Of a DNA stretch of 64,000 nt, positions 13,719 to 26,215 are shown one piece after another. A model generated the notes under the pieces. The model was not told the origin of the DNA, made no database searches, and was given only the letters and a program-made list of their open reading frames with translations. The stretch is from Kiritimatiellia bacterium (lineage in GTDB: Bacteria; Verrucomicrobiota; Kiritimatiellia; RFP12; UBA1067): assembly GCA_017406465.1 (NCBI GenBank), contig JAFQYM010000004.1, forward strand, positions 10,570 to 74,569, written 5' to 3'. Position numbers and translations under genes: made by a program. Positions within the stretch are counted from its first letter, which is position 1. The number at the start of each line of letters is the position of its first letter.

Positions 13719-13772
13719 AAACCCGCACAATCGGGAAATAGCCTGCATCGATGCAGCTAAGGGCCTACCCCG

Positions 13773-13994
13773 CTACTTCATCTCGACCCCGACCGTGAAG
13801 AACCGGTCGAGCGCGTTTGTCGGCGCGTGCCATTCTTCGCCCGACTCCAACCCCGCCCTGCCGTAGATGGTGTACCGCCGCCGCGACTCTTCCGCCACGT
13901 TCAACTTCGGCGACCATTCGACGACCGGCGCGCCGTCGACCATCGTAATCGTCGCGGTAAACACCGAGTTCGTGTCGGTCGATTCCCGCGACAT
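13773..13994 (-). CDS. Hypothetical 73-aa protein, high-GC, at the island boundary
   Basis: The ATG is preceded by GGAAGTGGTAGGG, 17 nt after the stop of the island's last gene. The sequence ends ...EEWHAPTNALDRFFTVGVEMK. No family recognised. Confidence 0.4.
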   Translation of the reverse strand: MSRESTDTNSVFTATITMVDGAPVVEWSPKLNVAEESRRRYTIYGRAGLESGEEWHAPTNALDRFFTVGVEMK

Positions 13995-14011
13995 AACCCT
14001 ACCACTTCCTA

Positions 14012-14896
14012 CTATTTCCGTCCAAATAAAGCATCATGCAACTTGTTAGCATTCTCCAGCGTAAATCCAGTTGCAGAATGAATCTTTTCTCCAGCTTTCG
14101 AGCGCACCTTTATCACCAATTCGTGCCTAGAGGGTTCCGCATTCCAATAACTTGGATGATTTGCTGACAGAACATATCGCATGGCGATTTTCTTTGCGTC
14201 AAGCGCATTCTTAACCTCCTTGAATATCCTACCTCGCACCTTGCTTCCTCCGGTTGTGCATATTACAACCACATCAGTCTTGGGCTCATACACAGAGCCG
14301 AGCCGCGAAATAAACTCATTGAAATAATCGTAATTTTCCCTATGATCCAGAAACAGCTTTTTGACAATTATGTTTTTCCGCTTCTGATTGTCTGGATAGC
14401 CATACAATGGCATCCCGAGAGAACACTGATACTGGATCATATTCATGAATGCGACATAATAGTCCTCGAAATTCTTCTTGAACAACATAGGGAGCAAGTG
14501 TTTTATGTTTCGACCTGTTGCTCCACGAGCAGGAGCGGGCGAAGCATACAAGCCACATTTAAAACCGTTTGAACATTCATCACATCTTGTGACATATTCA
14601 TCCTTATGTGGGGATTCTAATATCAGGATGATCTTGGGCTTGTGCTGCGCCCCTTCCTCGCCATACCAGTCTTGCAGGCTTACTATCTCGTTATTTGCGC
14701 GTGCAACCAACGGGGGCAGACTAAGTCCATCACAACGCCATTCCCCTAACGGCGACAATGATATGGCATCATTGCAAATTTCCGTGTGGCAATCTTTATA
14801 GATGCTCCGGAAGTCTGTGCAATCAATGCACAAGACATCTGAAACATCCTGCGGAAAATCAATCCAGCGCTTACTTTTCATTATACACCCCGACAT
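14012..14896 (-). CDS. Hypothetical protein with an N-terminal Cys cluster and a domain whose motif order resembles the uracil-DNA-glycosylase superfamily
   Basis: 294 aa (alternative ATG at 14881). Motifs: CIDCTDF...CHTEIC, KIILILESPH, ARGATGRNI, FMNMIQYQC, VVVICTTGG, NHPSYW. The family assignment rests on motif resemblance only. Confidence 0.7.
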   Translation of the reverse strand: MSGCIMKSKRWIDFPQDVSDVLCIDCTDFRSIYKDCHTEICNDAISLSPLGEWRCDGLSLPPLVARANNEIVSLQDWYGEEGAQHKPKIILILESPHKDEYVTRCDECSNGFKCGLYASPAPARGATGRNIKHLLPMLFKKNFEDYYVAFMNMIQYQCSLGMPLYGYPDNQKRKNIIVKKLFLDHRENYDYFNEFISRLGSVYEPKTDVVVICTTGGSKVRGRIFKEVKNALDAKKIAMRYVLSANHPSYWNAEPSRHELVIKVRSKAGEKIHSATGFTLENANKLHDALFGRK

Positions 14897-15122
14897 GCTT
14901 TTTAGCTTCCATCAAGCACTTATCGGCCATCTCCTGAAACATGGAAGCACTTTCGAGTTTGGCACACTGGAAGATATAGTTCTTCACCTCTTGTTTCTCT
15001 TCATCGCTGGTCTTGAGTTTCTGCTCTTTTATCATCGCAAGAAAACGATTCCATGCATACTTGTAATACCGACCGTCATATGTCCCTTCTTCATTGGTGA
15101 ATTGCATCAACCAACCATCCAT
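14871..15122 (-). CDS. Hypothetical 83-aa protein (charged, probably helical)
   Basis: Strong GAGGAGGA RBS. It overlaps the downstream ORF. No family recognised. Confidence 0.6.
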   Translation of the reverse strand: MDGWLMQFTNEEGTYDGRYYKYAWNRFLAMIKEQKLKTSDEEKQEVKNYIFQCAKLESASMFQEMADKCLMEAKKHVGVYNEK

Positions 15123-15136
15123 AATCTAATCCTCCT

Positions 15137-15400
15137 CTATTTCTTGATCCGTATCTTTCCATCATACTTTTCACGCGTGTATTCATCTTGAAACCATATA
15201 CTTCCGCATCTCGGGCAATACCAACAATGTCCACTAACCCATTCACCATCAATTTCTGCCGTGCAGTCGGCGTACTTATACTCGCCACGACATGTTGATG
15301 AGGTACAGTATTTTGGCGAATCTACATAGCCGGACGCTATACCATGTGTATATTCCGTCTCACCGAATACAGGGCAACCGTCTTGTTCATCGAATCTCAT
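15137..15400 (-). CDS. Hypothetical 87-aa zinc-ribbon-like protein
   Basis: The ATG at 15398-15400 is preceded by AAAGGAG. The ORF-track TTG at 15442 is less likely. It has the Cys pattern ...C...C....C...HCWYCPRCG. Confidence 0.6.
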   Translation of the reverse strand: MRFDEQDGCPVFGETEYTHGIASGYVDSPKYCTSSTCRGEYKYADCTAEIDGEWVSGHCWYCPRCGSIWFQDEYTREKYDGKIRIKK

Positions 15401-15438
15401 CACGTTCGCTCCTTTCATTAACTTTTTTATATCAAGTC

Positions 15439-16668
15439 TCAATAATAGGTAATTACCAAATCAGCTGGACATCCTTCAAAGACCCCATAATACGAAGACA
15501 TACTCGATCGAAGTGCGGATGGAACATAGGCATGAGTTAAATTACTACAATCCTTAAACGCAAATGGCCCTATGGATTTCACGCTATCTGGTATCGTCAC
15601 ACTAGTAAGACCACTGCAACCAGAGAACGAAGAGCTTCCGATTCGCGTCACGCTATCTGGTATCGACACTCTCGTAAGTCCGCTACAACCAGAGAACGCA
15701 TTATTCCCGATGCTCGTTACGCTGTCAGGTATCGTCATGTTCGCAAGTCTGCTGCAACCGTAGAATGCCGAGTCGTCTATGTTAGTAACACCGCTCCCGA
15801 TAATCACGCTTGAAAGTCCTAAGCAACCATTGAATGCAGAATATCCAATATTTGCTACGCAGTTGCTGATCATCACGCTTATCAACCCGCTACAACCTGC
15901 AAACGCATATTGTCCGATGTTTGCTACGCAGTTACTGATTGTCACGCTTGTCAACCCGCTGCAACCCCCAAACGCATTATCTCCGATGTTCGTCACTCCG
16001 TTGCCTATTGTCACGCTATCCAGATTCGTGCAACCGTAGAACGCTAACTCTCCTATGCTCGTCACGCTGTCTGGAACCGCCAATGCGCCTGTCAACTCGC
16101 CACAAGAGCAGAATGCCCGATCCCCAATGCACATCAAGCCATTCGGCATCGTCACACTCATGAGCCTATCACAAGCACAAAACGCATAAGAACCAATATT
16201 TGTCACACTATTTGGGATATCCACAGCTGTAAGGTTTCTGCAACGTAAAAACACTCTGTCACCAATGTCTGCTATACCATCTGGGATCACTAAACCCGAA
16301 AGGCTCGAACAATCTTCAAATGCTGAATAGCCTATATTTGTGACGCAAGCTGGGATTAGCACACTCGTTAGATTTGTACATCCCAGGAAGGCGTCTGATC
16401 CAATACTAGTCACCGAAGCTGATATGTTTATGTTTGTAAGATTTCTGCAATTGCAGAAAGCATATGGCCCAATGGTCGTAATGGTATTTGGCATCGCAAT
16501 ACTTGTTAGGGTACTGTCACCACTAAACGCGTCCACAATGCCGACAACAGCATACCCATCTACTTTTGCAGGGATAAAAACGTCGCCCGATTCTCCTGCA
16601 CACCATGTTAGTACTGCACCATCATCTTGCAAAACATAATGACATTCATGCCATCTTGCATACAACAC
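15439..16668 (-). CDS. BspA-type leucine-rich-repeat segment, probably the frameshifted C-terminal part of the giant surface protein
   Basis: There are about 15 repeats of the type IPxSVTxIGxxAFxxCxxLTSV. The N-terminal LYARWHE completes the Flg_new repeat that is interrupted at the end of ORF 16608..22118. Confidence 0.8.
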   Translation of the reverse strand: MLYARWHECHYVLQDDGAVLTWCAGESGDVFIPAKVDGYAVVGIVDAFSGDSTLTSIAMPNTITTIGPYAFCNCRNLTNINISASVTSIGSDAFLGCTNLTSVLIPACVTNIGYSAFEDCSSLSGLVIPDGIADIGDRVFLRCRNLTAVDIPNSVTNIGSYAFCACDRLMSVTMPNGLMCIGDRAFCSCGELTGALAVPDSVTSIGELAFYGCTNLDSVTIGNGVTNIGDNAFGGCSGLTSVTISNCVANIGQYAFAGCSGLISVMISNCVANIGYSAFNGCLGLSSVIIGSGVTNIDDSAFYGCSRLANMTIPDSVTSIGNNAFSGCSGLTRVSIPDSVTRIGSSSFSGCSGLTSVTIPDSVKSIGPFAFKDCSNLTHAYVPSALRSSMSSYYGVFEGCPADLVITYY

Positions 16669-19600
16669 CTCGTAGCCTGATTAGTTTCGATGGTATGTTC
16701 ATCAACTGCAAAGCCATCATCTGTATACCAACCTATAAACGCATAGTCGTTGGCATAATAATCTGCTCGCGTTGGAATAGGTAACTCTCCATATGGAGAA
16801 CCATAGGGAACAACCTTGGTTTTAGGGGATACGATTCCTCTATCAACATTAGCATTAAATATAACAGTACATGTGGCAGCAGTCCAGTGAGCATAAACCG
16901 TTATATTTGTCAAAGCCGTAAAAGTTTCATCACTTAAAATTTTGTTCCCGCCTGTTGGAGATGTAAACCACCCTTGGAATATGTGTCCAACCAGTGTTGG
17001 AGTCGGTAGCGCCCCATACGCATATCCATAAGTTACGGTCTGCGACACTATCTCACAACTCCCGCCGTTAGGATCGAAAGTGATAGTGTATGTGTTGGGG
17101 ATCCAGTGGGCGTAGAGCGCGTGTGATGAATTGGTGGTGATGGTGGTTGAGCCAGTCACTTTCGTGCCGCCAGTCGCTTTCGTGTACCAGCCGTCAAAGG
17201 TATGACCTGTACGCGTCGGGGTTGGCAAGGAGCCATACTCGGCATCGCGGTCGACAAGGATTTCGTCAGATGCACCATTAAGACTTCCACCGCCGTTCAA
17301 GCTTAGCGACACGACAGGAACGTCGTCGTAGAAGTCTCGCATCGTCGCACGCAAGAAGAAAGACTCCGCATTTCCGTCTTTGGGTTCGGCTACTATCGTC
17401 GCCTTGCCATCGTTTGGTGCACCAAACGAAAATGTCACATTATCGGAAGAGAAGTCATTGCGGTCAAGTGCTGAAGCACCTTCAATGCCAAATATCTTGG
17501 CAAGATTGGCTGCTGTTGCGTTATCACCAATGTCTACGCCATTGAGTCCGAGTTCGAACAGAAAACCACCTGCCGAGTATGGCGTAAACAAATCAATCGA
17601 CAAATCGTCCTTCCTGAATCGCTTGTCTATAAGCACGCTCGAGTCAAGCGCATACGAAAGCCACGACTTGTGCGCATCTTTGGCAGCTTGATGTTCAAAG
17701 CCTTTTCTATTCACCCAGTCGCGATAGGCATTGTACTCCGTCTTGCTAGTGATGTTCTCAGCAAGGTTGGCATCTACGGAACCTTCGAGGGCTTCGTCAA
17801 CTTCTGAATCTGTGTCGATACGCGGCAACGGGTCTGGCGGACCAGGCGTCCACTGTACCTCATCAATCCAAACGGAGTCCTCGTTCTCATGTCCATGGAA
17901 CGCCCCCTTTGTATAGCGCCAAACGATATCATGGAAATCGTATGTCGTTATCTCATGGACGATATTCGTCCAGTCGGTTTGTCCGGACAACTCGGCTACA
18001 AGCAATCCATCCACAATCAACTGGAATGCAGCATCAGATGCGCTTTCAGCCGTTGAAGTCCGTGCCCAGAAAGACAACGTTCCCACTCCATCAACCTCAG
18101 TCATGAGATCGCTTGTCTGATTGGCTTGAATCATGCCAGCTTTCACGGAGAACGTCTGGTCATGTGCGCGCCACGGATCGACTTGCCAAGATGTATTGCC
18201 GCCAGAAATGTAGGTTAATGAGTTATCGCCTATCGCCTCATTAACTGAAATCGGTTCGCGAACATAAAAAGTTTCATCCGCCCCCAGCAAGCCAGAGCCG
18301 TTCTCGCTATAACGGGCATAAACTCGCACTTCACCTGAAGTAGAGCCTATAGTTAGAAATCCGTCTTCGTCGAGTGTTGCATCGCCCTCGACAAACGCCG
18401 TCGGCAACACCCTTTTGGTCGTTCCATCCGCGTATGTGACGGTAAACACGACTTCAACAGTCCAGCCGGGACAAATCAAATCCTGAGAAACCTCAATTTC
18501 CAAGTTCACAGGCTTTGCTTTGATTTCAATCTCCCGCTCGGCTGTCCACTCCTTGCCATCCACCATACATGATGCGAATACCACTACACTCCCCGCGGAG
18601 TTTCCGGCTGTAACTGAACCTTGGGCATCAACCTCAGCTACCGCCGAATCAGAAATATTCCATGATACAGATTCCGCAGGAACGGAAGTGCCGTCGGAAT
18701 ATAGCAACTGCGCCGAATAGTTAGCGGTATCGCTCGCAAACATTGAGTCATCACCCACGATTTCAAACCCCGTCAAGACAGGTGCACACTTCTGCGTTAT
18801 AAAGCACACTTCACCGGCTATGATGATGCGTCCGACACGATCCTTACCTGTGTCGTTTTCGTCAAGCGTGTACGTCACGGCACCACTGCCAACGCCGCTA
18901 TCACAACCTTCCGCTATCGTAATCCAATCCGAATCAGATACCGCCTCCCAATATTCAATGCCATACCCTGTTGTCACCTGAATTGAACCGCCGGCAGTAT
19001 TCCACTTTGAAGTAACGGCATACGACTCGATCTCTGGGACATAATCACGCTGCACTACATAGAACTTCTGTCCTGACACGGTAATCACACCGACACGGGC
19101 AGACAGGGAGACACCCTGTCCCATTTCATCGACATCAAACTCCATGTCCATGCTTCCATATCCGTCTTCGTCGATTACATACATCCAGTCGTCTGGATAA
19201 TCCTCGACAATCCAATGCGTTTCATCATCGTCTGCGTCAATCGGAACATACATCGTTTCACCATCGTAGTCTGCAACGATCACATCATAAGGAACGGTAA
19301 TTCCGGCTCGGCGCTGATGAATTGTCACGGGAATGCCTCCAATGACGATCACGCCAGTCCTGTCGCTTGTCTCAGGATTTTTGGCAATGGTCAAAGTAAT
19401 CTCAGCGGGACCCGTTCCTGACGAAGGACTCGGCGTAATCCAGTCCACCTGTGACTCTGCCGTCCATGCGATATTTGGCGCCGGCAGTGACAGAGAAACG
19501 GTCTTTGAAGTGCGCTTTGAAGAATATTCAATGGTCGTGTCGGAAAGTGTTGCCGGAGCGATCCCTTGAGTAATCATCAATGTGCGTTTCAGTGGTTTTT

Positions 19601-22118
19601 CAATGTTGTAGATCTCGTTGATCTGATCCGTCGTTAGGCACGATGTAAATGTCTTGATGTCGTCAAAGACAATCTTACCACCATTGCCGTATGCGCACCA
19701 GGAATCAAGGCAGAAATAATCATACCCACCGGCAAGAGCCATCGTGCCGATGTCCTCGCCGTCAAGGTACATCGTCATTTTTGAACCGTTCGAAGTGACG
19801 GTCAACATGTGCCATTTACCCTGCTTCAACTTGTCGCCGCCAAAGTCGGCGGATTTGATGGAGTTCTCAACAAAACTGAAGCCGTTGGAGGAGACTTGCA
19901 ATAGGTAGGCCTCGTTTCCTTTGTCAAGTTGTGCCGCATCATAACTGGAATAGGGAGATCGCGTTCTCCTCACGGCCTTTGTGCGTAAAGCATAAAACAA
20001 TGGCGTTGGAACATCTGCCAAACCATCACTCTTTATCCAGAAATTCCACGAACACTTATTGCTCAAAAATACATCATTCACATTGATTCCCCACGACCAT
20101 ACTGCTGTCAGGTAATAGTAATTATCCCATTTTTTATATAAGGATTCTTTCGTGGAGCCAATGTCGGAAACGAGTTCTACTTTTTTTTCGTCGGCAGCTG
20201 CATGATAATCCGCATCCGTGTAAACTCCACTTTTATATCTGGCATATTCGAAATACGCCACAACACCAAGCTGATGAAGAGGCTGTATTTTACTCCCCGA
20301 TAGTCCGCTATGGTTAAGCCTCTCACGCCCTACTGTCACGATAACGTTTGATGCCGACAACATCTCTTCTGTTCCATCTGCCTTTCGCACGCGGAAACGA
20401 TCCATCGGTGCGTGGCTATAAAGCGTTGAATACACATCGCCTGAAACAGGTGGTATACGTGGCGCTTCTGATGGAAAGTTCAGCAATTCGGTTTCTGTCA
20501 ACGGACGGTTCCAGAAGTAATACGCCTGCGTCGAGGCATCGCCCTTGACAAGCCAGTCTTCGGACGGCTTAGTAGTGTGCTTGTAATTTGTGATGCGCAG
20601 CGAACAATTGTCCGTGTAAAGATGCCGATAGACGCCGCTGTCGTGAATGCCGCCGAAAAACGATGTCGTTGTCGGCGTCGTCACAAGGAAGAGATCGTAT
20701 GTGACATTGGTCGCAACGGAGAATCCGAGATCAACGATGTTGCCGTCGGGAGCATCATATACAAGACGGTTCTGGAATTCCTGGACGTAGAGCGATGCCG
20801 CGCCATTGTTTAAGTCGAAAAGGCGATTAAGTGCATTCGTTTCAGTTACACGAAACCAAACACCTTCCGTGCAACCCTGAACGTCGGCATCTCGCACGGA
20901 CGGATCATTGAAAGCCGTCCACTTAAGCCAATTCTCATTTTTCCATTGCGTCAATCCTCGCGCCATGTCGATTTCCGGATATGGGACCCATGCCTCGACT
21001 TCAATCTCGGCAGTGCGCTCCTGCAGGGTCGGGTTCGCGCTCACAACATATCTCACGTTCCCCGAACCGGCGCCAGAACTACCAGATGTGATCCTTACCC
21101 ACGGCATGGAACTTTTGGCCGTCCAAGACATGTCTTGCGAGGCCGTTACGGAAACATTCGAAATAGCCCCACCATAGGAAAATGTAGAAACCTGCGGATT
21201 AAGCGCCAGCTCGAAGTCGGTCGTTCCTCGTTGTATGACCGCCAGTTCGGCATTGTTTACGGTTATCTTGCCAGACCGCGACAAGACGCTCCGGTTCTCA
21301 GGCAACGACACGTGCATGACGCTACTGCCTGTTCCTGTCTTTGAAGTCGTAATCACGATCCACTCCGCATCTGACGCAGCAGTCCAATTGACATCCTCGC
21401 CCGCAACCAGCGACACATCAAATTCCTTTGCAGGGCATGGCCAAGTTATCGCAGTCTCTGGAACAAGCCAAACCTTGTTGGCGTCAGGATCGACCACTTC
21501 CGCCCCGCTTTGCGTGAGCAAGATTTGCTGTCCGGCAATTGTCAATGTAGCAATGCGCTCAGATTCGGAAGTATTCTCGTCCACGCTGTAGTAAACCGTA
21601 CTGTCGCCATCGCCCCTTGTTGGCCTGACGGTAACCCAGTCAGAATCGGATGAGGCAGTCCATGCGATCTCTTTCGCGCCATCCGTTGCAGGCTCTATTG
21701 AGAATGATATCTGCCCTTCTGCGATTGTTCCTGAAGCGGGGATGGAGACATTGCCTGATGGGGATAGCGTTGCCCCATATCCCAGCTGCGTAACAGTATA
21801 TGTCAACCCATTGATGTAGATATGCCCTATCCGAGTATCGGTAGAGTAATTGTGAAGAACCTTATAGGTTGCTGGCCTTGAACAATCAGTCCACTGCTTG
21901 CGGCGAAGATTTATCCACCCACCATCAGCGGAAGGAACGTCAGTCGTGGCCGTCCAAGCCTCATCACCAGATAGCTGTATCTCAAAAACCGCTGCCGTAT
22001 CATCATTTTGAACTATGCGTGCCCCAGTTTCCCCATCGGCAAAATCAAATGCGGCAAGCGCATGCGAAGAAGCAAAGCTCATCAAACAGAGCGACAATAC
22101 GGCAAGCGGTCTTCTCAT
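16608..22118 (-). CDS. Giant secreted surface/adhesin-like protein (BACON-like, LamG, Big_2 and Flg_new domains); N-terminal part of a frameshifted gene
   Basis: 1836 aa with the signal peptide MRRPLAVLSLCLMSFASSHALA. It has repeated W..(S/T)D..W(I/V)... G.G ...V.QxG BACON-like modules, LamG-type modules (KWHMLTVTSNGSKMTMYLDG) and Big_2-like modules. It also has three LPTPTR.GH.F.GW(Y/F)T...YAHW repeats. Confidence 0.85.
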   Translation of the reverse strand: MRRPLAVLSLCLMSFASSHALAAFDFADGETGARIVQNDDTAAVFEIQLSGDEAWTATTDVPSADGGWINLRRKQWTDCSRPATYKVLHNYSTDTRIGHIYINGLTYTVTQLGYGATLSPSGNVSIPASGTIAEGQISFSIEPATDGAKEIAWTASSDSDWVTVRPTRGDGDSTVYYSVDENTSESERIATLTIAGQQILLTQSGAEVVDPDANKVWLVPETAITWPCPAKEFDVSLVAGEDVNWTAASDAEWIVITTSKTGTGSSVMHVSLPENRSVLSRSGKITVNNAELAVIQRGTTDFELALNPQVSTFSYGGAISNVSVTASQDMSWTAKSSMPWVRITSGSSGAGSGNVRYVVSANPTLQERTAEIEVEAWVPYPEIDMARGLTQWKNENWLKWTAFNDPSVRDADVQGCTEGVWFRVTETNALNRLFDLNNGAASLYVQEFQNRLVYDAPDGNIVDLGFSVATNVTYDLFLVTTPTTTSFFGGIHDSGVYRHLYTDNCSLRITNYKHTTKPSEDWLVKGDASTQAYYFWNRPLTETELLNFPSEAPRIPPVSGDVYSTLYSHAPMDRFRVRKADGTEEMLSASNVIVTVGRERLNHSGLSGSKIQPLHQLGVVAYFEYARYKSGVYTDADYHAAADEKKVELVSDIGSTKESLYKKWDNYYYLTAVWSWGINVNDVFLSNKCSWNFWIKSDGLADVPTPLFYALRTKAVRRTRSPYSSYDAAQLDKGNEAYLLQVSSNGFSFVENSIKSADFGGDKLKQGKWHMLTVTSNGSKMTMYLDGEDIGTMALAGGYDYFCLDSWCAYGNGGKIVFDDIKTFTSCLTTDQINEIYNIEKPLKRTLMITQGIAPATLSDTTIEYSSKRTSKTVSLSLPAPNIAWTAESQVDWITPSPSSGTGPAEITLTIAKNPETSDRTGVIVIGGIPVTIHQRRAGITVPYDVIVADYDGETMYVPIDADDDETHWIVEDYPDDWMYVIDEDGYGSMDMEFDVDEMGQGVSLSARVGVITVSGQKFYVVQRDYVPEIESYAVTSKWNTAGGSIQVTTGYGIEYWEAVSDSDWITIAEGCDSGVGSGAVTYTLDENDTGKDRVGRIIIAGEVCFITQKCAPVLTGFEIVGDDSMFASDTANYSAQLLYSDGTSVPAESVSWNISDSAVAEVDAQGSVTAGNSAGSVVVFASCMVDGKEWTAEREIEIKAKPVNLEIEVSQDLICPGWTVEVVFTVTYADGTTKRVLPTAFVEGDATLDEDGFLTIGSTSGEVRVYARYSENGSGLLGADETFYVREPISVNEAIGDNSLTYISGGNTSWQVDPWRAHDQTFSVKAGMIQANQTSDLMTEVDGVGTLSFWARTSTAESASDAAFQLIVDGLLVAELSGQTDWTNIVHEITTYDFHDIVWRYTKGAFHGHENEDSVWIDEVQWTPGPPDPLPRIDTDSEVDEALEGSVDANLAENITSKTEYNAYRDWVNRKGFEHQAAKDAHKSWLSYALDSSVLIDKRFRKDDLSIDLFTPYSAGGFLFELGLNGVDIGDNATAANLAKIFGIEGASALDRNDFSSDNVTFSFGAPNDGKATIVAEPKDGNAESFFLRATMRDFYDDVPVVSLSLNGGGSLNGASDEILVDRDAEYGSLPTPTRTGHTFDGWYTKATGGTKVTGSTTITTNSSHALYAHWIPNTYTITFDPNGGSCEIVSQTVTYGYAYGALPTPTLVGHIFQGWFTSPTGGNKILSDETFTALTNITVYAHWTAATCTVIFNANVDRGIVSPKTKVVPYGSPYGELPIPTRADYYANDYAFIGWYTDDGFAVDEHTIETNQATRCCMQDGMNVIMFCKMMVQY

Positions 22119-22154: not shown

Positions 22155-23642
22155 TCACTTCCCCTTCCCGAACTCCGGCACCTTCTCATGGCCTTCGTTG
22201 AGGGAGGTGATGATTTCGGCGTGGGAGAGGGCGCGGGTGTAGACGCGGACTTCATTGTAGGTCGGGGCGACAAATCCGCCTAGGATGAGCATCGGTGGCT
22301 TCTTCCACGCAGACTTGCTTGTGCGTTCGCCGAAGCAGGTGTCGTCCTGGTAGAACTTGAGCAACATGCCCCCGCCGTTCTTCTCACCCGTAATGGTGTA
22401 GAGGTGGATTTTCCCGTCAACAAGCAGTTTCCCGTGGCCTACGGCCTTGCCTTCGCCAAACGCACAAATCATCGACACCCACTTGGTTTTCGCCCTCCAT
22501 GTCCAGAATACGCTGTCATCCTTGCTGTCGGGTTTGGACGCGATCTTGAAGATGTAATCGTCCTCCGAGCCAAGGCCCTTGTCCGTAGCAGAAGCCCAGA
22601 CCTGGACTGTGAACGGGGCGAGCGGGACGGTTCCGGCAGGGAACTCCAGCGGCGAGCCGGACTGAAGCGCAACAACGCCGTTCTCCGCCTTGGCATTGCC
22701 GTATTTGGACGGCGCGACGTTTCCGATTGAATCGGCGAAGCCGTTCGTGAAGGACCAGCGATGGACGATGCCAGAGGAATTCGGGGCGCTCGGTGATCGC
22801 CCCCTACCGGTGTCGGACGACGCGACGGGGCCGTCCTGCGATGGCGAAGGCACCGTCGCTACATCTGGCATGGAAAGCGTTGCGAGGCGCTGTTCGACAA
22901 GCCTGCGCTTGAGCCCGTCAAGCTTGCCGTCGGCTATCGCCTTACGGTAGTAGTTGGCTGCGCGCTCGCGGAAGGCCGGCTCACCACCAGTGTAACTCGT
23001 CTTGTAGTCCCACCAGAAGTCGCCAAGTTCTGCGGTACCCGCCGTGCCGTCTGCATCACCCTTTGCCAGCCGTCCGACTTCTCCGCTCACCTTCGAGAAC
23101 TCGGCAAGAGCACCCTTCCAATCCCCCAGAAGCGCCAGTGTCTCAGCATACTGACGCAGAACAGGATCTGTCTTTACCTGTCTGAGTTGGGACAAAAGCT
23201 TGCGAGAATCCTTGGCGGCCCTTACCTGCGCCTGCGCAAGCTGAAGCTGGGAGTTGAGACGCGGTGCCTTGCGCGCGTTTTCCTTACTCAGCGCCGATGA
23301 AATAATATCGGCGATGTCGGACGGAGGGACGCCCTTGATATTTGTTTTTATCTGCTCGATCGTGTCAGCAGCCTTGCCGAAGTTGCCATCCTTGATGTAG
23401 TAGCCCACAGCACCGCGAAGAAAGAGATATTTCACCGCCTCGCCTTTTGCAGATTCCGAAAACTGAATCGACGCTTCGGCGACTTCTGCAGCAGTTTTTG
23501 TCTTGTTCTTGTATTCCGTCAGGACAGGATTCATTAGTTCTGCAACAAGCGGTCTTGCCTCGGCAAGTTCCGGTTTGGTGGGATATGCAATGGCAACCCC
23601 GGTGATGAGTGAAGCGAACGCCGCGAAACCTATCTTCTTCAT
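22155..23642 (-). CDS. Secreted protein with a helical N-terminal domain and a C-terminal LamG-like jelly-roll (Laminin_G_3-type)
   Basis: 495 aa with a signal peptide. The C-terminus reads IVHRWSFTNGFADSIGN...NEVRVYTRALSHAEI. AAAGGAAAG RBS. Confidence 0.8.
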   Translation of the reverse strand: MKKIGFAAFASLITGVAIAYPTKPELAEARPLVAELMNPVLTEYKNKTKTAAEVAEASIQFSESAKGEAVKYLFLRGAVGYYIKDGNFGKAADTIEQIKTNIKGVPPSDIADIISSALSKENARKAPRLNSQLQLAQAQVRAAKDSRKLLSQLRQVKTDPVLRQYAETLALLGDWKGALAEFSKVSGEVGRLAKGDADGTAGTAELGDFWWDYKTSYTGGEPAFRERAANYYRKAIADGKLDGLKRRLVEQRLATLSMPDVATVPSPSQDGPVASSDTGRGRSPSAPNSSGIVHRWSFTNGFADSIGNVAPSKYGNAKAENGVVALQSGSPLEFPAGTVPLAPFTVQVWASATDKGLGSEDDYIFKIASKPDSKDDSVFWTWRAKTKWVSMICAFGEGKAVGHGKLLVDGKIHLYTITGEKNGGGMLLKFYQDDTCFGERTSKSAWKKPPMLILGGFVAPTYNEVRVYTRALSHAEIITSLNEGHEKVPEFGKGK

Positions 23643-23869
23643 CAGATTCTTTCCTTTCTTTACCTTCTACAGTTTGACCGCGACGGCGTCCAAAAGAAAG
23701 ACGCCCCCGCGCGCGTACCGCAGAGGCGACTGGTATGCCCGAAAGGAAACGCGACGCGGGGACGAAATCGACATAGTGCGCCCAGAGGACGCACCAAGAC
23801 AATCTGTCTTTGCGTTGTGCCTTCCTTCCAGATGATTACCAGTCTTCCTGCGGATCGGCAACTGACAGT

Positions 23870-23878
23870 ATTATAGCA
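23870..23878 (-). promoter_or_regulatory. Extended -10 element TGCTATAAT, about 225 nt upstream of the LamG gene
   Basis: Perfect consensus 9-mer in the intergenic region after the sigma-factor gene. Confidence 0.5.
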
Positions 23879-24002
23879 AAATTCACCGCTTGTGCGCGGA
23901 GAAAGTTCGCTTTTCGCCGCCAGCCGCCCCTTTCGGACAACCAGTCACCACATTATCACACGCAGAGGCGACGGGTGAATGACAGCGGAAAATTAAAAAA
24001 TA

Positions 24003-24611
24003 TCAAAACTCTGCCTCTATGGCGGCGATCATGCGCTCGACGCGTGTCTTTATCTGCGAGACGGAGTTGCGCGAGATGTTGAATTCGGCGGCGACTTCGC
24101 CTATCGGGCGCTCGTCTATGACGTAAGCCTGGTAAACAGCCTTCGACTGCGCCGAAAGCGCCGTCTTGGTAAGCGCCCATTCAACCGCCGCCCTGCGCCG
24201 CGCAAGCCGCCATTTCACGTCCACAATCGCCGCAGCATCTGAATCGACAGACGCCTCCACTCCCGAACCGGGATCGTCGAGCGAAACACTCGCCCCCTCT
24301 CCGCGGGACTGGCGCTTGCGCCATCGGCTGACGAGTTCATTGCGGACAAGCGTAGCGAGATACCGGCGGAACTTCCCCGCATCTCCGCCGACTTTCACGC
24401 GGCCGTCGCGAAGCACCTCCACGAGCCGCATGAAAATCTCCTGCACGACGTCTTCGCTCTCGTCTTCGCTTCCGCGCTCCTCGGCAAACGCCCTGATCGC
24501 CGGTGCATACAGCTCGAAGAGCCGCGTCCAACCGGCTTCGTCGCGAATGCCGGTCCTGTCCGATGCGAGACGGACAAGCAGTGAAACTGGAGTATCGGGA
24601 AAGTTCGCCAT
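24003..24611 (-). CDS. ECF-type RNA polymerase sigma factor
   Basis: I prefer the start MANFPDTP at 24609-24611, which overlaps the kinase stop (TAATG). The sigma-2 region is DVVQEIFMRLV. The sigma-4 HTH is IGEVAAEFNISRNSVSQIKTRV. Confidence 0.85.
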   Translation of the reverse strand: MANFPDTPVSLLVRLASDRTGIRDEAGWTRLFELYAPAIRAFAEERGSEDESEDVVQEIFMRLVEVLRDGRVKVGGDAGKFRRYLATLVRNELVSRWRKRQSRGEGASVSLDDPGSGVEASVDSDAAAIVDVKWRLARRRAAVEWALTKTALSAQSKAVYQAYVIDERPIGEVAAEFNISRNSVSQIKTRVERMIAAIEAEF

Positions 24612-26215
24612 TACTCCTCCCCCAGCGCGAGCCTCAGCGTGGTGTTCCATCCCCACTCTCCGACAAGCGAGCGTTCGGCAATATCGTCAGGTCCAAGCTG
24701 AACGTGCTTCAGCCTGCCCTTTTCATCCGTCCCTTCCGTCTCGCGGCAGATCGTCCGCCCCTGCCCGACGACATCGTAGACGCCCCACGCGTTTGGGTTC
24801 TTCGTCCGCACCCGACACGGCATCTTCGCCATAACGCTTTCCCACTTTACGCCCTTCTCCGCGGCGAGCGCTTTCTTGTCCGCGACCGACGGGCCCTTCA
24901 CGCCGAGCGCCGACGCATCCGCCGCGTTCGCGTCGCCCGCCGTCGAGGCAGTTACGAGTTCATTCGTCGACGGAAGCCTGAAGCGCGTTCCGCGCGGCAG
25001 ATGTGCCGCGAATCGGCGGTTGAGCTCGGCGATGAACTTCGATACGTCGTTCATCGACATGGCAACGGCAGGTTCGTCATCCGCGCCATCACGCTTGTTG
25101 CCCGTGACGCGCAACCACTCGCCGTTCGTAACGTGGCTTGCGCCGATCCAGAATGGCGCGGCAGACGTGCCGCGGCATTCGACCATCTCGATGCTGACGC
25201 CATCGCCAAGGTCGAAGGTGAGGGGGATGGGGTTTAGCCGTGTAGAACGTGTAGATCGTGTAGATGTCGGGGTTGGGGGTTGCCGTGTAGAACATGTAGA
25301 ACGTGTAGAATAGAGCAACCATGTCGACACGATTACGGCGCAGAGGCAACCAATAATTGCGAGGCGAGGAAAAACTGTCCTGCGCGGGCGAGTGGCATTC
25401 ATCTGTGCCTCCCGCAGAAACTCGACAAGCTTCACCGGCCTTTTTGCAGGGTCGGCGGCGAGCATCCAAGGGAGAATTCTGCTCCATGGGCCTTCAATCG
25501 GCTCGAGAAGCCGCAAGGCGTCCGTACCGGGCTCGTACCAGATTCCGGTCAGGAGGCGGAAGAACACGACACCGAGCGAATATACATCGGATGCCGCGCT
25601 CGCCTCTCCGCCCTTCCTGATTTCCGGAGCGAGATATCCGCCAGTTCCCATGACGAGCCGACGCGCCGATTCTTCATCACCTGCGACGACGGTCTTCTCG
25701 ACTCCGATCTCGCGCTTGATGCGTCCGTGTTCGTAGCGCGATATTCCAAAGTCGACAAGCACGGCATCGTTCTTCGCGTTGAGCAAGATGTTCGACGCCT
25801 TGACGTCGCGGTGTACTATTCCTTCGGAATGGATGCAGTCAAGCGCTGATGCGATAGACTCCATCCAGCGCAGACGGTCGGAGTCGGTGAACTCGTCCGG
25901 CGAAATATCCGCGAGCGTGCGCGGCTCGCCGTTCGCGTCAAGCACAAGGTCCATGACGAAATAGGCTGTCCCGTCCGGCATGACGCCGAGATCAAATACA
26001 CGCGCGACGTTCGGATGCTCAATGCGCGCGATGGCGCGGCCTTCGGCAAGGAATCGCTCGCGCAGAAATGCGGCGTCGCCGTTTTCAAGGACGAATGTCT
26101 TCAGCGCATAGCGCGTCCCGAGCGCGAGATGCTCAACCTCATACACCTCGCCCATTCCGCCGACGCCGATGCGCCGGACGATGCGGTAGCTGCCAACTGT
26201 TTCGCCCTGTTTCAT
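24611..26215 (-). CDS. Ser/Thr protein kinase with a TM segment and a C-terminal FGE-sulfatase (SUMF1-like) domain
   Basis: Kinase motifs GVGGMGEVY, ALK, HRDVKASNILL and DFGISR. An STR/PT-rich linker follows. The C-terminus reads FWIGASHVTNGEW...NAWGVYDVVGQG. Confidence 0.9.
   Translation of the reverse strand: MKQGETVGSYRIVRRIGVGGMGEVYEVEHLALGTRYALKTFVLENGDAAFLRERFLAEGRAIARIEHPNVARVFDLGVMPDGTAYFVMDLVLDANGEPRTLADISPDEFTDSDRLRWMESIASALDCIHSEGIVHRDVKASNILLNAKNDAVLVDFGISRYEHGRIKREIGVEKTVVAGDEESARRLVMGTGGYLAPEIRKGGEASAASDVYSLGVVFFRLLTGIWYEPGTDALRLLEPIEGPWSRILPWMLAADPAKRPVKLVEFLREAQMNATRPRRTVFPRLAIIGCLCAVIVSTWLLYSTRSTCSTRQPPTPTSTRSTRSTRLNPIPLTFDLGDGVSIEMVECRGTSAAPFWIGASHVTNGEWLRVTGNKRDGADDEPAVAMSMNDVSKFIAELNRRFAAHLPRGTRFRLPSTNELVTASTAGDANAADASALGVKGPSVADKKALAAEKGVKWESVMAKMPCRVRTKNPNAWGVYDVVGQGRTICRETEGTDEKGRLKHVQLGPDDIAERSLVGEWGWNTTLRLALGEE
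25238..25311. repeat. Nonamer (CGTGTAGAW) repeats within the kinase linker
   Basis: Two clusters of 9-nt units encode STRSTCSTR...STRSTRSTR. Confidence 0.7.

What the first reader, a model, noticed from the sequence alone, without database searches (positions are those of the whole stretch)
14012..15400. Tightly coupled three-gene cassette (Zn-ribbon 87 aa, 83 aa, Cys-cluster plus UDG-fold-like 294 aa) that I cannot assign to any described system
**Seen**
- Three minus-strand ORFs directly follow the LRR ORF at the AT-richest end of the island.
- 15137-15400: ATG preceded by AAAGGAG; HCWYCPRCG plus upstream cysteines suggest a zinc ribbon.
- 14871-15122: GAGGAGGA SD; the protein is charged and looks helical.
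- 14012-14896: ATG at 14896 or 14881, either way overlapping the end of the previous ORF.
- A 14-nt gap and then an overlap imply co-translation.
- The 294-aa protein has an N-terminal CxxC...CxxxxC cluster. It then has motifs in the same order as the uracil-DNA-glycosylase superfamily:
  - KIILILESPH (compare GQDPY/GEAPG after strand 1)
  - ARGATGRNI (compare G-x-PF-x-G-x-AG)
  - FMNMIQYQC (compare N-x-x-K-C)
  - VVVICTTGG
  - NHPSYW (compare HPSPLS/HPAA)

**Established knowledge**
- DNA glycosylases are known anti-phage effectors (Brig1-type).
- Small genes placed after giant surface proteins can be toxin/immunity modules.

**Inference**
- This may be a glycosylase-like effector with two small partners, acquired horizontally.
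Basis: partly seen in the sequence, partly recalled or inferred. Interest (0 to 1): 0.7.

Follow-up and report, generated by a model that had tools for sequence, protein, structure and literature searches.

The report
Uncharacterised glycosylase-like gene with two small partners
Three tightly packed unnamed genes in a rumen Kiritimatiellae genome are real; the largest founds a widespread, unnamed protein family that most likely has the fold and active-site layout of uracil-DNA glycosylases and usually sits among defence and toxin-antitoxin genes, so it is a good but unproven candidate for a new DNA-base-excising defence enzyme.

Summary
Three coupled minus-strand genes, A (87 aa), B (83 aa) and C (289/294 aa), lie at the AT-richest end of a low-GC block. 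All are 'hypothetical protein' in a Kiritimatiellae MAG.

C belongs to an unnamed family of at least 241 clusters at 50% identity, spread over many phyla. It has no Pfam, NCBIfam, PADLOC or PHROG match. The invariant motifs are LESPH..E, PA.G.TG, N..QYQCS and HPS.W.

Two AlphaFold models give UDG-superfamily proteins as best structural matches: SMUG1, family-4 UDGs and BdiUNG, with Foldseek probabilities up to 0.98. E-values are only 7e-3 to 2e-2. The profile-profile alignment to family-4 UDG is collinear motif by motif but weak (P=0.02). I rate the UDG-like fold likely (about 0.75-0.8), not proven.

The A-B-C trio recurs in three further diverged Kiritimatiellae-type loci. The B-C pair recurs more widely, in either gene order and always coupled. 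Most family members stand alone, next to TA, restriction-modification, Abi, PARIS-like or reverse-transcriptase genes.

In this lineage the cassette always follows a giant BACON/LamG/LRR surface-protein gene. It always precedes a detached 3' fragment of another giant gene. That points to a cargo hotspot, not a toxin/immunity pair.

Best reading: a new Brig-like glycosylase variant with lineage-specific partners. The function is untested.

The parts
15137..15400 (-). Gene A, 87 aa, a small Cys/His-rich (probably Zn-binding) protein. SD AAAGGAG lies 8 nt upstream. In-frame alternative starts are at 15418 and 15442.
   Evidence: Invariant C32, C37, C46, H58, C59, C62, C65 in 4 diverged copies. 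Only a weak YgiT zinc-finger hit, E 0.018. Found only in A-B-C loci. dN/dS 0.3-0.6. MBQ2623642.1.
14871..15122 (-). Gene B, 83 aa, a partner translationally coupled to C. SD GAGGAGGA lies 7 nt upstream.
   Evidence: 11 homologues at 65-94% identity. B-like 88-aa genes lie immediately downstream of C in the P0013/P0014-type loci and L108. dN/dS 0.13-0.30. No family or PDB match.
14012..14896 (-). Gene C, 294 aa from the ATG at 14896, or more likely 289 aa from the ATG at 14881. Founder of the 'ESPH' family, a probable UDG-superfamily-like enzyme.
   Evidence: Family. Motifs. Models with pLDDT 86-87.5. Structure matches to UDGs. hhalign. No library hits.
13773..13994 (-). 73-codon high-GC ORF starting 17 nt after C. 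It is a detached copy of the C-terminal domain of giant surface proteins, i.e. a scar marking the right edge of the inserted block. It is probably not part of the system.
   Evidence: Homologues lie downstream of C in all related loci. The same domain forms the last ~70 residues of intact ORFs of at least 1700-2070 aa in L101, L105 and L110. GC changes at about 14000.
15439..16668 (-). LRR_5 (BspA-type) repeat ORF of 409 aa. It is the frameshifted C-terminal part of the giant gene.
   Evidence: Pfam LRR_5 at 1.4e-112. It is collinear with the single 2208-aa ORF of L090, with a frame change at about 16671-16677. The same split appears in 4 independent assemblies.
16608..22118 (-). Giant surface-protein gene body of 1836 aa (BACON, Laminin_G_3, Flg_new). 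It is the upstream neighbour in every close C locus.

Best explanation
A-B-C is a small operon carried as cargo at the 3' end of a giant adhesin-like gene in a rumen Kiritimatiellae bacterium.

C is the working enzyme. It belongs to a large, unnamed, phylogenetically scattered family ('ESPH family'). Its alpha/beta core most likely has the uracil-DNA-glycosylase superfamily fold, with conserved residues at the UDG active-site positions:
- E94-S-P96-H after strand 1, matching the GE(A/G)PG loop;
- P-A-x-G-x-T-G at the N-terminus of helix 1, matching PFVGxAG;
- N152 at the end of strand 2, the base-recognising Asn;
- H247-P-S after strand 4, the HPS motif.

Inferred mechanism: C flips out and excises a base from DNA, leaving abasic sites. 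The base is probably non-canonical or modified. The reason is that the stacking Phe of family-4 UDGs is an invariant Ala here, and the glycine-rich loop is replaced. By analogy with Brig1 and Brig2, the target would be invading phage or plasmid DNA.

B is a stoichiometric partner specific to the clade with the Cys-loop and terminal extensions, acting as a regulator, inhibitor or adaptor. A is a narrower, probably Zn-binding accessory.

Shown: the genes, their coupling, the family, its motifs, its distribution and its neighbourhoods. Likely: the UDG-like fold. Inferred: glycosylase chemistry, defence role, and the roles of A and B.
For: **Genes and coupling**
- ORFs and coupling.
- Purifying selection and recurrence on many contigs.

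**Family**
- 36 word-indexed hits and 241 representative clusters at E<=1e-3.
- 69 loci in species genomes across Pseudomonadota, Bacillota, Bacteroidota, Lentisphaeria, Cloacimonadota, Thermotogae and Myxococcota.
- Invariant or nearly invariant polar residues in 149 members: D43, E94, S95, P96, H97, E100, T127, N152, Q157, C158, S159, R198, T215, H247, W251. This is the pattern of an enzyme.

**Fold**
- Window-protein model (pLDDT 86): the top four PDB matches are SMUG1.
- In BFVD the top matches include phage PolA proteins and annotated UDGs, with probability up to 0.85.
- Compact-member model (pLDDT 87.5): the top matches are T. maritima family-4 UDG (prob 0.94, TM 0.40/0.43), BdiUNG (prob 0.98) and T. 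thermophilus UDG (prob 0.91).
- hhalign aligns 126 columns collinearly. E94 pairs with E41, P96 with P43, G125 with G56, N152 with N80, C158 with C84 and H247 with H155 of 1UI0. P=0.02, against P=0.65 for the reversed control.

**Context of distant members**
- A type I R-M HsdR subunit lies adjacent.
- AbiLi x4, AriA x3, WYL, PycTM and Type I S/M.
- A 1077-aa RT protein, TPR-CHAT, T5orf172-helicase and an ArdC polyvalent protein.
- HicAB and RelB/ParE pairs, and TA genes on a Cupriavidus plasmid.

**B-C link**
- The two genes are adjacent and overlapping in both orders, B-C and C-B.

**Precedent**
- Brig1 is a UDG-like protein of 261 aa. Its best structural match is a family-4 UDG, and it is gene c of a three-gene operon (PMC11078745).
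- Brig2 and 11 further clusters of UDG-like integron proteins are described in 10.1101/2025.10.29.685425.
Against: - No statistically firm link to UDG exists. No Foldseek E-value is below 1e-3, and TM-scores are 0.26-0.43.
- hhalign probability is about 2%, and the Viterbi core is only the 12-column HPS motif.
- PF03167 did not hit the window protein and was not among the 25 most-matched Pfam families of the 149 members; 64 families matched in all and the other 39 were not shown.
- PDB profile searches found no UDG.
- Conserved residues at the C-terminal ends of strands are generic to doubly wound alpha/beta enzymes.
- PADLOC has no hit, although its 2023 release predates Brig1.
- Only about a quarter of distant loci show defence or TA neighbours, and no control set was run.
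- In the window's own lineage the neighbours are surface-protein genes, not defence genes.
- There are no phage hits and only 5 hits in 2.9 million viral contigs. That is neutral for a defence role.
- Nothing here tests enzymatic activity.
- The roles of A and B are guesses. Neither has any family or structure match.
Confidence: 0.5

Rival explanations
1. A toxin-antitoxin-like addiction module. C damages the host's own DNA by base excision. B, and perhaps A with its weak similarity to the MqsA/YgiT zinc finger, neutralises it. This would stabilise the horizontally acquired block.
For: - A small gene overlapping a larger one, in either order, is typical of type II TA pairs.
- B evolves faster than its neighbours. 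Against L090 it is 70% identical, compared with 93% for A, 89% for C and 98.5% for the LRR part.
- Distant members sit among TA pairs.
- A has a weak YgiT-type finger hit.
- In L095/L096, C is frameshifted while A and B stay intact.
Against: - Most family members (about 200-260 aa) stand alone with no conserved small partner. The enzyme is therefore not intrinsically in need of an antidote.
- B has no similarity to any antitoxin family.
- B is near-neutral in charge by residue count, so it is not an obvious DNA mimic.
Confidence: 0.15
2. C is a doubly wound alpha/beta enzyme that is not a DNA glycosylase. It might be a nucleotide-, cofactor- or metal-dependent enzyme. The UDG resemblance would then be convergent or generic. 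In this lineage it could serve the giant surface protein, for example in modification or maturation.
For: - All UDG links are statistically marginal.
- Flavodoxin-like, GTPase and CARF folds also appear among the weak matches.
- Linkage to giant surface-protein genes is strict in the clade at 37% identity or more.
- One Bacilli member lies 14 nt upstream of a Flg_new/collagen protein.
- In Acutalibacteraceae the domain is fused to a B12-binding radical-SAM domain.
- In Methylobacter it sits inside the suf operon.
Against: - UDG-superfamily proteins are the top-ranked matches in three separate searches with two models. Probabilities of 0.91-0.98 stand well above the next matches, which are at 0.23 or less.
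- Four motifs align in register.
- The giant-gene linkage is explained by the hotspot: other cargo sits at the same scar in L103.
- The suf insertion is accompanied by HicAB and RelB/ParE, which makes it an accessory islet.
Confidence: 0.2
3. C is a mobility or homing enzyme. It would be a sequence-specific base-excising nuclease equivalent, in the manner of R.PabI. The lesion it makes would promote recombinational insertion of its own cassette at particular sites, here the 3' end of giant genes.
For: - C, or C plus one small gene, is always the last gene before the detached giant-gene fragment.
- The fragments differ in length (62-116 codons) and match different intact genes. This suggests repeated events.
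- The gene is inserted between sufB and sufC in Methylobacter.
- In the P0002-type loci a weak GIY-YIG/DUF123-like gene lies just upstream.
- Y1-transposase-like genes are flanked by copies of the fragment.
Against: - The same scar hosts unrelated cargo without C (L103). The hotspot therefore does not depend on C.
- No terminal repeats flank the window block.
- No precedent exists for a UDG-fold homing enzyme.
- Most distant members lie in ordinary accessory regions.
Confidence: 0.07
4. An immunity/toxin module belonging to the giant surface protein, in the style of polymorphic toxins.
For: Position directly after a giant secreted-type protein.
Against: - The giant protein ends in LRR_5 repeats with no toxin domain recognised.
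- The C family is mostly found without such proteins.
- The conserved catalytic-type residues fit an enzyme rather than an immunity protein.
Confidence: 0.03

Closest known systems
Family-4 (and family-3/SMUG1) uracil-DNA glycosylases, Pfam PF03167
   Same: - Predicted strand-helix order, with conserved motifs after strand 1, at the end of strand 2 and after strand 4.
- These align to GE(A/G)PG, PFVGxAG, N..KC and HP(S/A) of 1UI0.
- They are the best structural matches.
- C158 aligns with the Fe-S ligand C84.
   Different: - No PF03167 hit was seen for the window protein or among the 25 most-matched families of the members scanned.
- The motif is LESPH instead of the glycine-rich GExPG.
- The stacking Phe is an invariant Ala (A123).
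- Only two of the four Fe-S cysteine positions are conserved.
- There are extra invariant residues (Q157, S159, F195, R198, T215, W251) and an N-terminal 'CPD' element.
- The distribution is sporadic and accessory-genome-like, not housekeeping.
Brig1 / Brig2 UDG-like anti-phage DNA glycosylases (PMC11078745; 10.1101/2025.10.29.685425)
   Same: - Single-domain proteins of roughly 200-290 aa that escape sequence annotation.
- Their nearest structural relatives are family-4-type UDGs.
- They have a scattered phyletic distribution in AT-rich, acquired regions near defence or mobile genes.
- Brig1 is also the third gene of a three-gene operon.
   Different: - Sequence relationship could not be tested, because no Brig sequences were available here.
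- 'ESPH' and 'QYQCS' strings are absent from the held supplements.
- Brig1's key residues (Y121, E147) have no obvious counterparts: the position aligned to the stacking Phe of family-4 UDG is Ala here.
- Here there is a conserved coupled partner (B).
- In this lineage the location is a hotspot behind giant adhesin genes rather than a classical defence island.
- No phage phenotype is known.
Type II toxin-antitoxin pairs (e.g. MqsRA, HicAB)
   Same: A small gene overlapping a larger one, with the order reversible between lineages. The pair co-localises with bona fide TA pairs in other genomes.
   Different: There is no homology to any TA family. The large gene usually occurs alone.

Membership tests
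UDG superfamily (fold level) | Alpha/beta/alpha sandwich with a four-stranded parallel sheet, recognised by structure comparison | tested here: inconclusive
   UDGs are the top matches for both models. SMUG1 gives E 0.019-0.07. 1vk2, 5gn2 and 1ui1 give probabilities 0.94, 0.98 and 0.91, E 7e-3 to 2e-2 and TM 0.37-0.43. Viral UDGs and PolA proteins reach probability up to 0.85. No match reaches E<1e-3. Sheet order could not be read because no coordinates were available.
UDG superfamily (fold level) | Motif A (water-activating loop, G-[QEIM]-[DNA]-P-x) immediately after strand 1 | tested here: inconclusive
   An invariant L-E-S-P-H follows predicted strand 88-93. It aligns to G-E-G-P-G of 1UI0, with Glu and Pro matched. 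The glycines are absent.
UDG superfamily (fold level) | Motif B (H-P-S/A...) after the last core strand, and Asn at the end of strand 2 | tested here: met
   H247-P248-S-x-W251 follows strand 242-246. N152 ends strand 147-152. Both are at least 90% conserved in 149 members and align to H155 and N80 of 1UI0.
UDG, Pfam PF03167 (sequence family) | Match to the Pfam model at or near the gathering score | tested here: not met
   The window protein has no PF03167 hit at E<=1. PF03167 is not among the 25 most-matched families when 149 members are scanned; 64 families matched in all and the other 39 were not shown. Genuine family-4 UDGs carry PF03167. PDB profile searches find no UDG.
Family-4 UDG | Four-cysteine 4Fe-4S site (C13, C16, C84, C100 in 1UI0) | tested here: not met
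   Only C41 (N-terminal 'CPD') and C158 (aligned to C84) are conserved family-wide. The window clade has additional Cys at 104, 107 and 113 whose ligand role is unknown.
DNA glycosylase (activity) | Hydrolysis of the N-glycosidic bond in DNA | not testable with these tools
   Needs a biochemical assay.
Brig1/Brig2-type defence glycosylase | Sequence or profile homology to Brig1 (OR880862; WP_129427366.1) or Brig2 | not testable with these tools
   Sequences were not retrievable. The supplements are truncated. PADLOC 2023 has no hit, but that release predates Brig1.
Brig1/Brig2-type defence glycosylase | Location in defence islands or near mobile elements | tested here: inconclusive
   Defence, TA or MGE genes lie within two genes in roughly a quarter of about 45 distant loci, with no background control. 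In the window the neighbours are surface-protein genes. The region is AT-rich and acquired-looking.
Brig1/Brig2-type defence glycosylase | Protection against phage with modified bases | not testable with these tools
   Needs plaque assays.
Polymorphic toxin / immunity | C-terminal toxin domain on the large protein, followed by a cognate immunity gene | tested here: not met
   The giant proteins end in LRR_5 with no toxin domain on record. The C family is mostly unlinked to such proteins.
Zinc ribbon (gene A) | Two CxxC-type knuckles, with a match to a Zn-ribbon family | tested here: inconclusive
   Invariant C32-x4-C37, C46 and H58-C59-x2-C62-x2-C65. The only hits are TIGR03831 at E 0.018, below cutoff, and LIM domains at E 0.4.

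The most novel reading that the evidence does not exclude
The ESPH family is a new, mechanistically distinct branch of base-excision enzymes. It has Glu/Ser/His chemistry in place of the glycine-rich UDG loop and no stacking Phe, and it recognises an as yet unknown modified base. In Kiritimatiellae it works as a two- or three-component system in which B, and A, gate or target the enzyme. Alternatively, it acts as a lesion-making 'homing' enzyme that drives cassette insertion behind giant adhesin genes.
Probability: 0.12. Interest if true: 0.85.

Novelty: new variant of a known kind. Interest (0 to 1): 0.55.

Why it matters
UDG-fold glycosylases that attack modified phage DNA (Brig1, Brig2) were recognised only in 2024-2025, and they escape sequence-based annotation.

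This finding defines a large family of at least 241 clusters at 50% identity across many phyla. No library names it. It carries an unusual motif set at the UDG active-site positions.
- If it is a glycosylase, it adds a new specificity class and a ready set of mutational targets (E94, N152, H247).
- The coupled partner B would be the first dedicated accessory protein for such an enzyme.

The work also exposes a cargo hotspot at the 3' end of giant adhesin genes in rumen Kiritimatiellae. That hotspot is useful for mining further accessory genes.

Tried and rejected
- **Library scans.** Pfam, NCBIfam, PADLOC and PHROG scans of A, B and C found nothing above noise. RRG7 at E 0.22 is dismissed.
- **Pfam scan of 149 family members.** It gave only scattered chance hits among the 25 families shown.
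- **PDB profile searches.** The only notable hit was the vaccinia VITF-3 small subunit (E 0.008 over 63 residues). VITF-3 is a TBP/TFIIB-like factor (PMC12917281), so I treat this as chance.
- **Richer family-4 UDG profile.** A 117-sequence profile did not improve hhalign beyond P=0.02. Global mode fails.
- **Brig1 and Brig2 sequences.** I could not obtain them. The supplements are truncated or contain no sequences.
- **Phage genomes.** No match.
- **Plasmids.** Two 'hypothetical protein' hits.
- **Viral contigs.** Five hits.
- **A and B against the PDB.** Nothing significant.
- **Promoter and terminator scan.** At or below the shuffle expectation.
- **Repeat search.** No flanking direct or inverted repeats that could be att sites.
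- **Rfam.** Only three distant tRNAs.
- **Large alignment as a search query.** The 149-sequence alignment was too diverse for the search for related loci.
- **The 97-aa gene after C in P0020-type loci.** It is not a B homologue.
Full report

Yes. On the minus strand, the ORF listing finds 15137-15442 (ATG at 15400 gives 87 aa), 14871-15122 (83 aa) and 14012-14896 (294 aa).

The sequence shows three features:
- AAAGGAG lies 8 nt before the ATG at 15400.
- GAGGAGGA lies 7 nt before the ATG at 15122, and the A-B gap is 14 nt.
- Two in-frame ATGs for C, at 14896 and 14881, both lie inside the end of B.

GC is 0.44 over 14001-17000 and 0.48-0.53 over the giant gene, against about 0.62 in the flanks. 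The jump is at about 14000.

Exact look-ups place the three proteins in a Kiritimatiellae MAG. They are MBQ2623642.1, MBQ2623641.1 and MBQ2623640.1, all 'hypothetical protein'. GenBank calls C at 289 aa, meaning the 14881 start, which the homologues also use.

Diverged copies show purifying selection: dN/dS is 0.3-0.6 for A, 0.13-0.30 for B and about 0.2 for C.

No promoter or terminator signal above the shuffle expectation separates these genes from the upstream gene.

**2. What C is at the sequence level**

C has no hit in Pfam, NCBIfam, PADLOC or PHROGs. It nevertheless has a family:
- 36 proteins in the word-indexed search.
- 241 representative clusters (50% identity) at E<=1e-3 in the exhaustive search. 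Most are stand-alone proteins of 200-260 aa.
- 69 loci in species-representative genomes spanning many phyla.
- Two RefSeq plasmid copies, both 'hypothetical protein'.

Across 149 members, E94, S95, P96, E100 and S159 are invariant. The following are at least 90% conserved: D43, L93, H97, P122, A123, G125, T127, G128, N152, Q157, C158, F195, R198, T215, H247, P248 and W251.

The insert C104-x2-C107-x5-C113 is specific to the clade at 44% identity or more.

**3. Is it UDG-like?**

The AlphaFold model of the window protein has pLDDT 86 and pTM 0.87. It shows a strand-helix alternation:
- strand 88-93, followed by the ESPH motif;
- helix 126-138, starting at the TG motif;
- strand 147-152, ending in N152;
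- strand 209-214;
- strand 242-246, followed by the HPS motif.

Foldseek against the PDB ranks SMUG1 structures first to fourth. The numbers are weak: E 0.019-0.07 and TM about 0.3. Against BFVD, the top matches include phage PolA-type proteins and annotated UDGs, with probability up to 0.85 and E 0.035-0.2.

A second model, of a compact 209-aa member, has pLDDT 87.5. Its top matches are:
- 1vk2, T. maritima family-4 UDG: E 7e-3, prob 0.94, TM 0.40/0.43;
- 5gn2, BdiUNG: prob 0.98, rmsd 5.2 over 147 columns;
- 1ui1, T. thermophilus UDG: prob 0.91.

The next-best matches are MutS chains at probabilities of about 0.1-0.23.

For the profile-profile test I recovered real family-4 sequences from PDB alignments, then 113 further homologues. 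hhalign aligns 126 columns collinearly. ILILESPH..E falls on MIVGEGPG..E, PA.G.TG on PFVGKAG, N152 on N80, C158 on C84 and HPSSW on HPAYL. The statistics are poor: P=0.02-0.03 and probability about 2%. The reversed control gives P=0.65.

Sequence-only searches never reach UDG.

My reading is that the UDG-superfamily fold is likely (about 0.75-0.8). Three structure searches agree on the same top-ranked superfamily, and four motifs fall in register at the known active-site positions. Every single statistic is marginal, though, and the family fails the PF03167 and Fe-S criteria.

Established knowledge of UDGs assigns roles to three positions: the motif-A loop, the strand-2 Asn and the motif-B His. 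Here they are E94/S95/H97, N152 and H247. The stacking Phe (F54 in 1UI0) is an invariant Ala. I infer from this a different, probably bulkier or modified, substrate.

**4. Do the three genes go together?**

Partly.

The full A-B-C order recurs after a giant gene in three diverged locus types:
- L090-92: A 93%, B 70% and C 89% identical to the window proteins.
- L093-94: 94%, 78% and 87%.
- L095-96: 74% and 74% for A and B. Here C is broken into two ORFs.

B-like 88-aa genes lie immediately downstream of C, with a 1-nt gap or an 11-14 nt overlap. This is seen in the P0013/P0014-type loci (C 43-46% identical) and in L108. Adjacency and coupling that survive a change of gene order argue for a physical partnership.

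The pairing is not universal:
- A was not found outside A-B-C loci in the DNA fetched here; no database-wide search for A was run.
- In loci whose C is 91% identical (P0002 type), A and B are replaced by a 132-aa protein with weak DUF123/GIY-YIG similarity (E 8.5e-4) and a 273-aa protein.
- In P0020-type loci C directly follows the giant gene and is followed by an unrelated 97-aa gene.
- Distant members have no conserved neighbour.

A and B match no family or solved structure. A keeps six Cys and two His invariant, so metal binding is plausible.

**5. Surroundings and the 'scar'**

In every locus with C at 37% identity or more, the upstream gene is a giant BACON/Laminin_G_3/Flg_new/LRR_5 protein.

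In the window that gene is split by a frameshift at about 16671-16677. The split produces the 1836-aa ORF and the 409-aa 'LRR ORF'. The region is collinear with the single 2208-aa ORF of L090, and the split is present in four assemblies.

Upstream lie a LamG protein, an ECF sigma factor and a Ser/Thr kinase-FGE protein, as in L001.

Downstream of C, starting 17 nt after its stop, is a 73-codon high-GC ORF (13773-13994). Homologues follow C in all related loci. A metagenome scan shows that this sequence normally forms the last ~70 residues of intact ORFs of at least 1700-2070 aa, as in L101, L105 and L110.

It is therefore a detached 3' fragment of a resident giant gene. It marks the edge of the inserted low-GC block.

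Three further observations bear on this:
- The fragments vary from 62 to 116 codons.
- They are often duplicated around Y1-transposase-like genes.
- In L103 the same upstream flank and scar enclose entirely different cargo.

So this is a cargo hotspot. The giant-gene linkage of C need not be functional. No att-like repeats bound the window block.

**6. Context of the wider family**

Neighbours within two genes of distant members include:
- a type I R-M HsdR subunit;
- AbiLi (4 members), AriA/AAA_21 (3), type I M/S subunits, WYL and PycTM;
- a 1077-aa RT protein, TPR-CHAT, T5orf172-ResIII and an ArdC polyvalent protein;
- TA genes on a Cupriavidus plasmid.

In eight Methylococcales loci (seven labelled Methylobacter, one unclassified) the gene sits between sufB and sufC; in L056 it is accompanied by HicAB and RelB/ParE pairs. 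In Acutalibacteraceae the domain is fused to a B12-binding radical-SAM domain.

The family is absent from phage genomes and rare in viral contigs.

This is the profile of an accessory gene associated with defence or TA genes. I ran no background control, so it is suggestive only.

**7. Comparison with what is known**

C 'works like' these only by inference. Membership could not be tested, because no Brig sequences were available.

C is not a member of PF03167 or of family-4 UDGs by their sequence and Fe-S criteria.

The toxin/immunity idea for the giant protein is not supported.

**8. Verdict**

The genes are real and coupled. C founds a large unnamed family that is probably a divergent UDG-superfamily enzyme. 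The glycosylase and defence reading is the best-supported mechanism (about 0.5) but is untested.

The trio is lineage-restricted: the B-C pair is the conserved unit, and A is an add-on.

I rate it a new variant of a known kind, with interest 0.55.

Noticed in passing
window 13773-13994 (-); L101 6005-6215, L105 4971-5179, L110 6001-6216: The 73-codon ORF just after C is a detached copy of the C-terminal domain (...GTDPTDTNSVF...RFFxVGVE) that ends intact giant ORFs of at least 1700-2070 aa elsewhere. Fragments of 62-116 codons mark the downstream edge of variable cargo in many loci.
   Followed up: yes
L103 1-4579 versus window 23680-23846 and 13771-13982: A metagenome contig shares the window's upstream flank and the scar. 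Between them it carries quite different cargo: a 1136-aa repeat protein, two small CxxC proteins and a small membrane protein. The site is therefore a cargo hotspot that does not depend on gene C.
   Followed up: partly
L001 9428-11169; L005 9282-10857; L099, L101, L102, L104 (two copies each): The scar sequence is often present twice, 0.7-1.5 kb apart. In L001 and L005 the two copies flank a 359-370-aa gene with weak IS200-like Y1 transposase similarity; a related 408-aa gene lies downstream of C in L013.
   Followed up: partly
window 16608-16680: The giant surface-protein gene is frameshifted in this strain into an 1836-aa and a 409-aa ORF. It is a single 2208-2462-aa ORF in relatives. The split is reproduced in four independent assemblies, so it is not a read error in one assembly.
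   Followed up: yes
window 14871-16668 versus L090: Adjacent genes differ sharply in divergence from L090: the LRR part is 98.5% identical, A 93%, B 70% and C 89%. dS is 0.06 for A, 0.55 for B and 0.28 for C. This suggests mosaic recombination or fast evolution of B.
   Followed up: partly
L095 and L096, 6243-7113: In one trio locus gene C is broken into two ORFs while A and B remain intact.
   Followed up: no
L045, L046, L048, L051, L056, L061, L064, L069 (Methylococcales, mostly Methylobacter): A family member is inserted between sufB and sufC of the Fe-S assembly operon. In L056 it is accompanied by HicA/HicB and RelB/ParE pairs.
   Followed up: partly
L027 8252-10564; L034 8258-10570: In Acutalibacteraceae the C-type domain is the C-terminal part of a 770-aa protein. 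The N-terminal part is a B12-binding radical-SAM enzyme.
   Followed up: no
L009-L012 (e.g. L010 3343-4590): Where C is 91% identical to the window protein, A and B are replaced by two other genes. One is a 132-aa protein with weak DUF123/GIY-YIG and AbiJ-NTD5 similarity. The other is a 273-aa protein with no family.
   Followed up: partly
PDB 8p0j chain I versus family profile positions 99-161: The family profile hits the vaccinia VITF-3 small subunit at E 0.008, over the TG...N..Q..CSL stretch. VITF-3 is described as TBP/TFIIB-like, so this is probably chance.
   Followed up: partly
window 22155-26215 (-): Upstream of the giant gene lie a LamG-domain protein, an ECF-type sigma factor and a Ser/Thr kinase fused to an FGE-sulfatase-like domain. 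The same kinase-sigma pair precedes the giant gene in L001 and L002.
   Followed up: partly
window 15579-16202: Tandem 69-nt units at 61-80% identity. These are the 23-residue LRR_5 repeats of the giant protein's C-terminal part.
   Followed up: no
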